From Escherichia coli (GTDB lineage: Bacteria; Pseudomonadota; Gammaproteobacteria; Enterobacterales; Enterobacteriaceae): a stretch of 64,000 nucleotides of DNA. Positions 16,801-19,800 of this stretch are shown here, one piece after another (within the stretch, counting starts at the first letter, position 1; every line of letters begins with the position of its first letter). The position numbers are program-made. The DNA is taken from assembly GCF_022846255.1 (NCBI RefSeq), contig NZ_AP025682.1; one strand, given 5' to 3'.

Positions 16801-19800
16801 GGGGTGGATATCCTCAAGGAGGGCGGGAATGCCGTTGATGCTGCCGTGGCGGTGGGCTACGCGCTGGCAGTAACGCATCCGCAGGCAGGGAATCTGGGCG
16901 GCGGTGGTTTTATGCTGATCCGCTCGAAAAATGGCAATACCACGGCTATCGATTTCCGCGAAATGGCACCCGCCAAAGCGACCCGCGATATGTTCCTCGA
17001 TGATCAGGGCAACCCGGACAGCAAAAAATCACTCACTTCGCATCTGGCTTCCGGCACACCCGGTACGGTAGCGGGTTTCTCGTTGGCGCTGGATAAATAC
17101 GGCACCATGCCGTTGAATAAAGTGGTGCAACCGGCGTTTAAACTGGCACGCGATGGTTTTATCGTTAACGACGCGCTGGCTGACGATCTCAAAACCTACG
17201 GCAGTGAAGTGCTGCCGAACCACGAAAACAGCAAAGCTATCTTCTGGAAAGAGGGCGAACCGCTGAAAAAGGGCGACAAGCTGGTGCAGGCGAACCTGGC
17301 AAAGAGCCTGGAGATGATTGCCGAAAACGGCCCGGATGAATTCTACAAAGGCACGATAGCGGAACAGATTGCCCAGGAGATGCAGAAAAACGGTGGCTTG
17401 ATCAGCAAAGAAGATTTAGCGGCATATAAAGCGGTCGAACGCACACCGATAAGCGGCGATTATCGCGGGTATCAGGTTTACTCCATGCCACCGCCATCTT
17501 CCGGCGGTATTCATATCGTACAAATCCTCAATATTCTGGAAAACTTCGATATGCAGAAGTACGGCTTTGGCAGCGCCGACGCGATGCAAATCATGGCAGA
17601 AGCTGAGAAATACGCCTATGCCGACCGCTCGGAATATCTTGGCGACCCGGATTTTGTCAAAGTACCGTGGCAGGCGCTGACCAATAAAGCCTATGCCAAA
17701 TCTATTGCCGATCAAATCGATATCAATAAAGCGAAGCCATCCAGCGAAATTCGTCCTGGCAAGCTTGCGCCTTATGAGAGTAATCAAACTACCCATTACT
17801 CAGTAGTGGATAAAGACGGTAACGCCGTGGCGGTGACCTATACGCTGAACACCACCTTCGGTACGGGCATTGTCGCGGGCGAGAGCGGTATTTTGCTCAA
17901 TAACCAGATGGATGATTTCTCCGCCAAACCAGGCGTACCGAACGTTTACGGGCTGGTGGGCGGCGATGCCAACGCCGTCGGGCCGAATAAACGCCCGCTG
18001 TCGTCGATGTCACCAACCATTGTGGTCAAGGATGGTAAAACCTGGCTGGTCACCGGAAGCCCAGGCGGTAGCCGGATTATCACCACTGTGCTGCAAATGG
18101 TGGTGAATAGCATCGATTATGGAATGAACGTCGCCGAAGCGACCAATGCGCCGCGTTTCCACCATCAGTGGTTGCCGGACGAGCTGCGTGTCGAAAAAGG
18201 GTTTAGCCCGGATACGATCAAGCTGCTGGAAGCAAAAGGTCAGAAAGTGGCGCTGAAAGAGGCGATGGGCAGTACACAAAGCATTATGGTTGGGCCGGAC
18301 GGTGAGCTGTACGGTGCATCCGACCCGCGCTCGGTGGATGATTTAACGGCGGGTTATTAATATCTTAAGCCCTCTCCCGGTAGGTGAGGGCTTAAATGAC
18401 AAACTGAGATTACAAATTCTCTATTTCACCCGCGCCATATAATACGCATCGACATATTCACCATTACGCAGCGCGTACTTCTTGCCAGTCCCTTCAATCT
18501 CAAAGCCAAATTTTTTATAGACCTTAATTGCTGGCGCGTTATCGACGAACACCGTTAGCTCAATACGATCTACCCGCAACCAGTTGTCGCACATTTCAAT
18601 CATCTCTCGCATCAGGGCGCTGGCGACGCCGCGGTTCTTCCAACGGGAGTCGACACAGATACCAAAATCGGCAACATGACTGCGGCGTGGGCGTTGTTGC
18701 ACGTCAATGGTGAGATGGCCTACGACGATTCCATCAATACAGGCGACTAACTGCTTGATGCCAGGGCGAGCGGTGAGTCGTTCCAGCCACATTTGTTCTG
18801 AAGGATGAGGCACCTGTAGCGTGTTGTAATACACCTCCGGCTGGGCGTGAATCTGCCTGATGGCCTCGTGATCGCGTGTTTCTGCGTGGCGTATTACTAT
18901 CTCACTCATTCCTTTGTCCTCTTTGGGGTAAATGTCCCTTTCAACATCATTGACTTTCAAATGCGAGTCAAATGCATTTTTTTGCAAAAAGTGTTGGACA
19001 AGTGCGAATGAGAATGATTATTATTGTCTCGCGATCAGGAAGACCCTCGCGGAGAACCTGAAAGCACGACATTGCTCACATTGCTTCCAGTATTACTTAG
19101 CCAGCCGGGTGCTGGCTTTTTTTTTGATCTTTCGTTCTCAATTTATCCTCGGGAAGTGCTTGTGTTCGTTATGCGCACTCCAGTAGGAACCACGTCCGCT
19201 TTGCGCTAAGGTGTAAATAACCACCTTAAAAAGGACGAAATCATGGTCATTAACTGCGCCTTTATTGGCTTCGGCAAAAGCACCACCCGTTACCATCTGC
19301 CGTATGTACTTAACCGCAAGGATAGCTGGCATGTCGCGCATATCTTTCGCCGCCATGCGAAGCCGGAAGAACAGGCCCCCATTTATTCCCATATCCATTT
19401 CACCAGCGATCTCGACGAAGTGCTAAACGATCCCGATGTTAAGCTGGTTGTCGTCTGCACCCACGCGGACAGCCACTTCGAGTACGCGAAGCGCGCGCTG
19501 GAAGCCGGGAAAAATGTGCTGGTCGAAAAACCGTTCACTCCGACAATTGCGCAGGCGAAAGAGCTGTTTGCACTGGCGAAAAGCAAAGGGCTGATCGTTA
19601 CGCCGTATCAGAATCGTCGCTTTGATTCCTGCTTCCTGACAGCGAAAAAAGCGATTGAAAGCGGCAAGCTGGGAGAGATTGTCGAAGTGGAAAGCCATTT
19701 TGACTATTACCGCCCGGTGGCAGAAACCAAACCGGGGCTACCGCAGGATGGCGCGTTCTATGGCCTTGGTGTGCATACGATGGACCAGATTATTTCTCTG

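What the first reader, a model, noticed from the sequence alone, without database searches (positions are those of the whole stretch)
18990..19127. RyhB sRNA with Fur-box promoter is intact in the yhhY-yhhX intergenic region
Seen in sequence: a 90-nt stretch matching RyhB, with the expected Fur box overlapping a sigma-70-like promoter and an intrinsic terminator (AGCCAGCCGGGTGCTGGC followed by a T run). It is known biology but the only non-coding RNA gene in the window, easily missed by ORF-based annotation. Its target-pairing core should be fully conserved.
Basis: partly seen in the sequence, partly recalled or inferred. Interest (0 to 1): 0.3.

Follow-up and report, generated by a model that had tools for sequence, protein, structure and literature searches.

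The report
Intact RyhB iron-sparing small RNA gene
This is the ordinary, fully intact copy of ryhB, the well-studied iron-starvation small RNA of Escherichia coli, with its Fur-repressed promoter and terminator, identical base for base to the laboratory strain K-12.

Summary

- **Identity.** Window 19031-19120 (+) is the 90-nt RyhB sRNA. It scores 83.1 bits against Rfam RF00057 (gathering score 55). It is 100% identical to ryhB (b4451) of E. coli K-12 MG1655, promoter included.
- **Position.** It lies between yhhY (-) and yhhX (+), as in K-12.
- **Promoter.** A sigma-70-like promoter (TGGACA, 18 nt, TATTAT) ends 7 nt before the 5' end.
- **Fur box.** The best Fur-box match in the whole 64 kb (19010-19028; 15/19 on +, 16/19 on -) covers the -10 hexamer.
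- **Terminator.** A 7-bp GC-rich hairpin followed by 9 T closes the gene.
- **Pairing core.** The 27-nt core (19064-19090) is found exactly in at least 120 loci of Enterobacterales, Aeromonadales and Vibrionales. Of 112 loci with enough flank, 111 carry a Fur box of at least 14/19 upstream. Nucleotides 38-46 are the exact complement of the K-12 sodB start-codon region.
- **Other RNA genes.** ARAGORN, Rfam and the K-12 annotation of the syntenic region show none.
- **Annotation.** The RefSeq PGAP records inspected leave the locus unannotated, so "easily missed" is fair.

This is textbook biology: already known and of low interest.

The parts
18421..18909 (-). yhhY (N-acetyltransferase), the divergently transcribed upstream neighbour
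   Evidence: The ORF is. Its coordinates map onto yhhY of SK1144 and K-12.
18995..19000 (+). -35-like hexamer TGGACA of the ryhB promoter
   Evidence: Promoter scan, 10/12 match with an 18-nt spacer. Identical to K-12.
19010..19028 (.). Fur box GAGAATGATTATTATTGTC. It covers the -10 hexamer and reaches position -3. A second, overlapping 14/19 match lies at 19004-19022.
   Evidence: 15/19 (+) and 16/19 (-) to GATAATGATAATCATTATC, the best in the window; 0.15 sites expected per shuffled window. A Fur box of at least 14/19 lies upstream of 111 of 112 homologous loci, against 2 of 471 control windows.
19019..19024 (+). -10 hexamer TATTAT, ending 7 nt before the 5' end of the RNA
   Evidence: The 5' end is taken from the K-12 annotation mapped onto the window.
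19031..19120 (+). RyhB sRNA, 90 nt. The K-12 record annotates 95 nt, to 19125, the end of the T run.
   Evidence: Exact match to the 90-nt K-12 sequence. Rfam RF00057 scores 83.1 bits. The 95 nt 19031-19125 (the K-12 annotated extent) have a match in 5424 of 5426 complete E. coli genomes; 5358 of these are at least 99% identical.
19031..19050 (+). Predicted 5' stem-loop (RyhB nt 1-20)
   Evidence: Minimum-free-energy fold. This is a prediction only, and it lies outside the Rfam model.
19064..19090 (+). Conserved 27-nt core GCACGACATTGCTCACATTGCTTCCAG (RyhB nt 34-60), the target-pairing region
   Evidence: PMC2964681 describes the 'core' as holding the sodB-pairing sequence and the Hfq site.
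19068..19076 (+). GACAUUGCU (RyhB nt 38-46), the exact complement of sodB mRNA -4 to +5 (AGCAAUGUC), which spans the AUG
   Evidence: The core/sodB-TIR duplex is -19.3 kcal/mol; shuffled targets average -10.3 (sd 2.9), and 6 of 500 do as well.
19091..19098 (+). A/U-rich linker UAUUACUU between the core and the terminator (RyhB nt 61-68)
   Evidence: Unpaired in the fold and in the Rfam consensus structure. Its role as part of the Hfq-binding module is inferred from the literature.
19099..19125 (+). Intrinsic terminator and Hfq-binding module: the 7-bp stem AGCCAGC/GCTGGCT with a 5-nt loop (19099-19117), then a run of 9 T (19117-19125)
   Evidence: Terminator scan, fold and Rfam structure. Sixteen different stem sequences in 84 homologous loci all keep the pairing through compensatory changes. 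Hfq-binding sRNAs carry at least 7 T (PMC5558911).
19243..20280 (+). yhhX (oxidoreductase), the downstream neighbour on the same strand

Best explanation
Window 19031-19120 (+) is the functional ryhB gene of an Escherichia coli strain.

**Inferred from K-12 and CFT073 experiments:**
- When iron is sufficient, Fe2+-Fur binds the operator at 19010-19028. This operator covers the -10 hexamer, so the sigma-70 promoter is blocked.
- When iron is scarce, Fur leaves and the 90-nt RNA is made.
- The RNA ends at the intrinsic terminator, whose hairpin plus poly(U) tail, together with the A/U-rich stretch before it, binds Hfq.
- The single-stranded conserved core (nt 34-60) pairs with the translation-initiation regions of mRNAs for non-essential iron-using proteins (sodB, sdhCDAB, acnA, bfr and others). 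This blocks translation and triggers RNase E-dependent decay, which spares iron. A few targets are activated (shiA, cirA).

**Shown here:** the sequence, its exact identity to the characterised gene, the arrangement of promoter, operator and terminator, their conservation in other species, and complementarity to sodB.

**Not tested here:** Fur binding, iron-dependent expression, Hfq binding and target decay in this strain.
For: - **Family match.** Rfam RF00057 matches over its full length at 83.1 bits against a gathering score of 55.
- **Identity to the characterised gene.** Promoter and gene are 100% identical to K-12 ryhB b4451, in the same yhhY/yhhX context.
- **Spread within E. coli.** The gene is present in 5424 of 5426 complete genomes, and 5358 are at least 99% identical over 95 nt.
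- **Transcript ends.** The promoter and terminator sit at the right distances from the RNA ends.
- **Fur box.** The best Fur-box match in the window covers the -10 hexamer.
- **Conservation across three orders.** The 27-nt core is exact. A Fur box of at least 14/19 lies upstream in 111 of 112 loci, against 2 of 471 control windows. The terminator stem is kept through compensatory changes in 16 different stem sequences.
- **Target pairing.** Nucleotides 38-46 are the exact complement of sodB -4 to +5.
- **Literature on the mechanism.** PMC2964681, PMC8544716 and PMC5558911. PMC7157518 reports RyhB upregulated in the fur mutant of the uropathogenic strain CFT073.
Against: Nothing substantive. 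The folding energy of the whole RNA is no better than that of shuffled sequences (z = -0.59). This is usual for Hfq-dependent sRNAs with a long single-stranded pairing region, and it means that thermodynamics alone would not have identified the gene. The promoter and terminator consensus scans are individually at chance frequency; their weight comes from their position. Expression was not measured.
Confidence: 0.97

Rival explanations
1. The stretch is a decayed or non-functional copy: a pseudogene, or a divergent paralogue like the second RyhB copies of Salmonella, Yersinia and Serratia, rather than the working gene.
For: Second copies exist in other genera. The core scan found two loci per genome in Yersinia, Photorhabdus, Serratia, Pantoea and others.
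Against: Promoter, Fur box, transcript and terminator are identical to the experimentally characterised K-12 gene. The median is one copy per E. coli genome. The gene sits at the canonical yhhY-yhhX position.
Confidence: 0.01
2. The region encodes a small protein, and the RNA-family match is incidental. Mechanical ORFs cross it, for example 18932-19186 (84 aa) and 19024-19209 (61 aa, TTG start).
For: These ORFs appear in the six-frame list.
Against: Both ORFs run straight through the terminator hairpin and T run. The 84-aa ORF starts about 100 nt upstream of the transcription start, inside the promoter. The conservation pattern is that of an RNA: an exactly conserved 27-nt core next to a stem kept by compensatory changes and a loop of variable length, which would shift any reading frame. 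The curated K-12 annotation lists an ncRNA and no CDS here.
Confidence: 0.01
3. The element acts mainly in cis as a Fur-controlled leader or attenuator of the downstream yhhX gene, through read-through of the terminator, rather than as a trans-acting sRNA.
For: ryhB and yhhX are on the same strand, 117 nt apart. Termination efficiency at sRNA terminators is reported to be regulated (PMC5558911).
Against: The terminator is strong: a 7-bp GC-rich stem and 9 T. In other genera the core, Fur box and terminator are conserved as a self-contained unit, in some genomes as two copies on different contigs. Trans regulation by RyhB is experimentally established. Some read-through is not excluded, but it would be a side effect.
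Confidence: 0.01

Closest known systems
RyhB (SraI) of Escherichia coli K-12 MG1655, gene b4451, Rfam RF00057
   Same: Identical over the -35 hexamer, Fur box, -10 hexamer, the 90-nt RNA and the terminator. It has the same neighbours (yhhY divergent, yhhX downstream) and the same complementarity to sodB.
   Different: Nothing in the gene. There are two differences 24 and 29 nt beyond the T run (19149 T for A; one extra A at 19154). The wider neighbourhood differs: the K-12 segment yhhZ-yrhA::IS1E-yrhD-yrhB next to yhhY is absent, so ggt abuts yhhY, as in strain SK1144.
RyhB homologues and paralogues of other Gammaproteobacteria (two-copy genomes in Yersinia, Serratia, Photorhabdus and Pantoea; longer RyhB of Vibrionales; Aeromonas RyhB)
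   Same: The same 27-nt core, an upstream Fur box and an intrinsic terminator.
   Different: Those differ in the 5' part, the distance from Fur box to core (31-105 nt), the terminator stem sequence, total length and copy number. The window copy is the E. coli type in all these respects.
Functional analogues with no sequence relationship (PrrF of Pseudomonas, IsrR of Staphylococcus aureus)
   Same: They follow the same logic: a Fur-repressed sRNA that down-regulates mRNAs of iron-using proteins. The IsrR papers appear; PrrF is from my own knowledge.
   Different: They are unrelated in sequence and structure. The window element is a true RyhB, not merely an analogue.

Membership tests
RyhB sRNA (Rfam RF00057) | Scores at or above the family's curated gathering score with the covariance model, over the full model length | tested here: met
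   83.1 bits against 55; model positions 1-67 of 67; E = 3.6e-14.
RyhB sRNA (Rfam RF00057) | Conserved single-stranded core that pairs with target mRNAs (sodB translation-initiation region) | tested here: met
   The 27-nt core is identical to K-12 and exact in at least 120 loci of other species. Nucleotides 38-46 are the exact complement of K-12 sodB -4 to +5.
RyhB sRNA (Rfam RF00057) | Fur operator overlapping the promoter | tested here: met
   15/19 (+) and 16/19 (-) at 19010-19028, covering the -10 hexamer at 19019-19024. The same arrangement is found in 111 of 112 homologous loci. Binding by Fur itself was not tested.
RyhB sRNA (Rfam RF00057) | Rho-independent terminator with a poly(U) tail of at least 7, forming the Hfq-binding module | tested here: met
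   A 7-bp stem, a 5-nt loop and 9 T. The stem is kept through compensatory changes in homologues. The criterion is from PMC5558911.
RyhB sRNA (Rfam RF00057) | Orthologous position in E. coli, between yhhY and yhhX | tested here: met
RyhB sRNA (Rfam RF00057) | Induced by iron limitation or fur deletion, Hfq-dependent, and causing RNase E-dependent decay of targets | not testable with these tools
   Established for the identical K-12 sequence, and for RyhB of strain CFT073, in the literature. Not measured for this strain.

The most novel reading that the evidence does not exclude
The gene itself offers nothing new. The most novel reading not excluded concerns its targets. The accessory content of the window (a fimbrial operon best matched by strains such as LF82 and NC101, and a PsyrTA island) shows this strain carries genes that K-12 lacks. 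In such a background the identical RyhB may have extra, strain-specific targets, as reported for iucD, iutA and iroN in CFT073. The Fur-box-like site at 39465-39483, upstream of the accessory chaperone-usher fimbrial operon in the same window, might place that operon under iron control as well.
Probability: 0.08. Interest if true: 0.25.

Novelty: already known. Interest (0 to 1): 0.05.

Why it matters
It matters only as an annotation point. ryhB is a central regulator of iron homeostasis and contributes to siderophore production in uropathogenic E. coli. Even so, the PGAP-annotated RefSeq records inspected show no feature at this locus, so an ORF-based or pipeline annotation of this window would leave it blank. 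Confirming that the gene, its Fur operator and its pairing core are intact shows that the strain has the standard iron-sparing circuit. No open question is advanced.

Tried and rejected
- **Folding energy as evidence.** The RyhB MFE (-24.1 kcal/mol) is not better than that of shuffles (z = -0.59), so I did not use it as support.
- **Full-length RyhB/sodB duplex.** RNAduplex on the full sequences gave an unrealistic end-to-end duplex, because it ignores intramolecular structure. I replaced it with the core against the translation-initiation region, plus an exact-complement check.
- **Other RNA genes.** ARAGORN found none. Rfam in E-value mode gave only sub-threshold hits: naRNA4 at 4950-4987 and 10858-10895 (40 bits against a gathering score of 59.5), ES036 at 10811-10853, and a eukaryotic or archaeal snoRNA model at 49-96. 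I read the naRNA4 hits as REP-type repeats and the rest as chance, not as genes.
- **Small ORFs across the locus**. Rejected as mechanical; see the rival explanations.
- **Pseudogene or paralogue reading.** Rejected on 100% identity.
- **Second Fur-box-like site** at 39465-39483 (15/19). It lies in very AT-rich DNA, where such matches are more likely by chance. I did not pursue it beyond noting it.

Full report
**1. What the sequence shows**

- TGGACA at 18995-19000.
- GAGAATGATTATTATTGTC at 19010-19028.
- GCGATCAGG... starting at 19031.
- AGCCAGCCGGGTGCTGGCT at 19099-19117, followed by nine T (19117-19125).

The 90-nt K-12 RyhB sequence occurs exactly once in the window, at 19031-19120. The Rfam scan of all 64 kb on both strands returns a single family at or above its gathering score. 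That family is RyhB (RF00057), at 19060-19124 (+), with 83.1 bits against 55, E = 3.6e-14 and the full model length.

**2. Identity and context**

The 332-bp intergenic region 18911-19242 has a match in 5424 of 5426 complete E. coli genomes, always on the chromosome.

Aligned with K-12 MG1655 it is identical except at two positions beyond the terminator. These are 19149, T for A, and 19154, one extra A.

The K-12 record annotates ncRNA ryhB (b4451) at 3580922-3581016. This maps to window 19031-19125, between yhhX on the same strand and yhhY, which is divergent. In the window the corresponding ORFs are yhhY at 18421-18909 (-) and yhhX at 19243-20280 (+).

Over the 95 nt of the K-12 annotated gene (19031-19125), 5358 of the 5424 genomes are at least 99% identical.

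**3. Promoter, operator and terminator**

The consensus scan gives one promoter-like site, TGGACA-18 nt-TATTAT (18995-19024, 10/12), and one terminator-like site, 19099-19117 plus its T run. Both counts are at the level expected by chance for a 700-bp stretch. The evidence is therefore their position: the -10 hexamer ends 7 nt before the annotated 5' end, and the T run is the annotated 3' end.

The 19-bp Fur consensus GATAATGATAATCATTATC, as quoted in PMC2964681, matches 19010-19028 at 15/19 (+) and 16/19 (-). This is the best match in the window. An overlapping 14/19 match lies at 19004-19022. Shuffled windows give 0.15 sites of at least 15/19. The operator covers the -10 hexamer, which is the classic arrangement for repression by promoter occlusion.

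**4. Comparative evidence**

The genera include:
- Escherichia, Citrobacter, Enterobacter and Klebsiella.
- Yersinia, Serratia, Pantoea, Erwinia, Dickeya and Pectobacterium.
- Photorhabdus and Xenorhabdus.
- Aeromonas and Zobellella.
- Photobacterium, Aliivibrio and Salinivibrio.

Of 112 loci with enough flank, 111 have a Fur-box match of at least 14/19 within 250 nt upstream. Only 2 of 471 random 250-nt control windows from the same loci reach that score. In 107 of the 112 loci a T run follows the core.

In the 84 loci with a terminator 18-32 nt after the core, 16 different stem sequences occur, and all of them pair. Examples are AGCCAGC/GCTGGCT, AGCCCGC/GCGGGCT, GGCCGGC/GCCGGCT and AGGGCCAG/CTGGCCCT. 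The hairpin is therefore kept by compensatory change while the core is frozen. That is the signature of an sRNA with a constrained pairing face and a structural terminator.

**5. Mechanism**

RyhB nt 38-46 (GACAUUGCU, window 19068-19076) is the exact complement of AGCAAUGUC in K-12 sodB mRNA, positions -4 to +5 across the start codon. The duplex of the core with the sodB translation-initiation region is -19.3 kcal/mol. Shuffled targets average -10.3 (sd 2.9), and 6 of 500 do as well.

The remaining steps are taken from the literature on the identical K-12 RNA:
- Fe2+-Fur represses ryhB through the Fur box.
- On iron starvation RyhB pairs with about 20 mRNAs for iron-using proteins, blocks their translation, and promotes degradation by RNase E and the degradosome with the help of Hfq (PMC2964681; PMC8544716).
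- The terminator hairpin with seven or more U is the Hfq-binding module (PMC5558911).
- In the uropathogenic strain CFT073, RyhB is upregulated in the fur mutant and additionally raises iucD, iutA and iroN (PMC7157518).

These steps are inferred for this strain, not shown.

**6. Is it the only RNA gene in the window?**

- ARAGORN finds no tRNA or tmRNA gene.
- In Rfam E-value mode the remaining hits are all below their gathering scores. They are two naRNA4 hits (4950-4987 and 10858-10895), which I read as REP-type repeats, plus ES036 and a snoRNA model.
- The curated K-12 annotation from malQ to ftsY lists no ncRNA other than ryhB.

The claim therefore holds within the reach of these resources.

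**7. Rivals**

- A decayed copy or paralogue is excluded by identity to K-12.
- Mechanical ORFs across the locus run through the terminator, and the conservation pattern contradicts them.
- A cis-acting role for yhhX is not needed. The module is self-contained in other genera, some of which carry two copies on different contigs.

**8. Verdict**

The observation and the interpretation are both correct. This is the textbook ryhB gene, unchanged. Novelty: already known. Interest: low. The only practical note is that the PGAP RefSeq records inspected do not annotate it.

**9. Seen in passing**

- A PsyrTA defence or toxin-antitoxin pair at 24334-27635.
- A seven-gene chaperone-usher fimbrial operon at 39702-46867, present in about 15% of complete E. 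coli genomes.
- Absence of the K-12 yhhZ-yrhB segment next to yhhY.

Details are in the separate list.

Noticed in passing
window 24334-27635 (+): A two-gene island between gntU and yhgN that K-12 lacks. A 699-aa RecQ-like helicase and a 431-aa DprA-like protein match the PADLOC models PsyrT (1064 bits) and PsyrA (671 bits) over their full lengths. This is a known toxin-antitoxin / anti-phage pair. The island is also present in strain SK1144.
   Followed up: partly
window 39702-46867 (+): A seven-gene chaperone-usher fimbrial operon (fimbrial subunit, chaperone, usher, two subunits, chaperone, large subunit or adhesin) inserted between glgP and glpD, where K-12 has only yzgL. It is present in 784 of 5426 complete E. 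coli genomes. The best matches are only 99.2% identical (LF82, NRG 857C, NC101, NGF1). From memory, the gene order resembles the auf cluster of uropathogenic E. coli; this was not tested.
   Followed up: partly
window 39465-39483: The second-best Fur-box-like match in the window (15/19 on the - strand, GATAATGATAAAATTTATT). It lies in the very AT-rich region upstream of the fimbrial operon and could be chance in AT-rich DNA.
   Followed up: no
window 47041-49129 (+): Three consecutive ORFs (236, 255 and 201 aa) between the fimbrial operon and glpD with no Pfam or PADLOC match. By size and position, SK1144 appears to annotate the last two as hypothetical proteins, preceded by a PstS-family gene.
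   Followed up: partly
window 18360-18421: ggt abuts yhhY. The K-12 segment yhhZ-yrhA::IS1E-yrhD-yrhB (about 3.4 kb) that lies between them in MG1655 is absent, as it is in SK1144. The DNA next to ryhB is therefore a variable spot among strains.
   Followed up: partly
window 4950-4987 (-) and 10858-10895 (+), also 10811-10853 (-): Sub-threshold Rfam hits to naRNA4 (40 bits against a gathering score of 59.5) and to ES036. They lie in intergenic DNA after livJ and livF. I read them as REP-type palindromic repeats, not sRNA genes.
   Followed up: no
window 52045-56869: The glpR ORF is uninterrupted, and rtcR (52836-54434), rtcB and rtcA are all full length. K-12 annotates glpR as a pseudogene, and SK1144 has a deletion that fuses fragments of rtcR and rtcA.
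   Followed up: no
E. coli genome collection; loci L008/L009, L029/L030, L084: Two of 5426 complete E. coli genomes have no ryhB match, and some have up to 3 places; one record is only 91% identical. Outside E. coli, many genera carry two core-containing loci. Salinivibrio has two copies about 300 nt apart in tandem.
   Followed up: no
window 19031-19125 in RefSeq records: None of the PGAP-annotated E. coli records listed shows a feature at ryhB. Only the curated K-12 record names it.
   Followed up: yes
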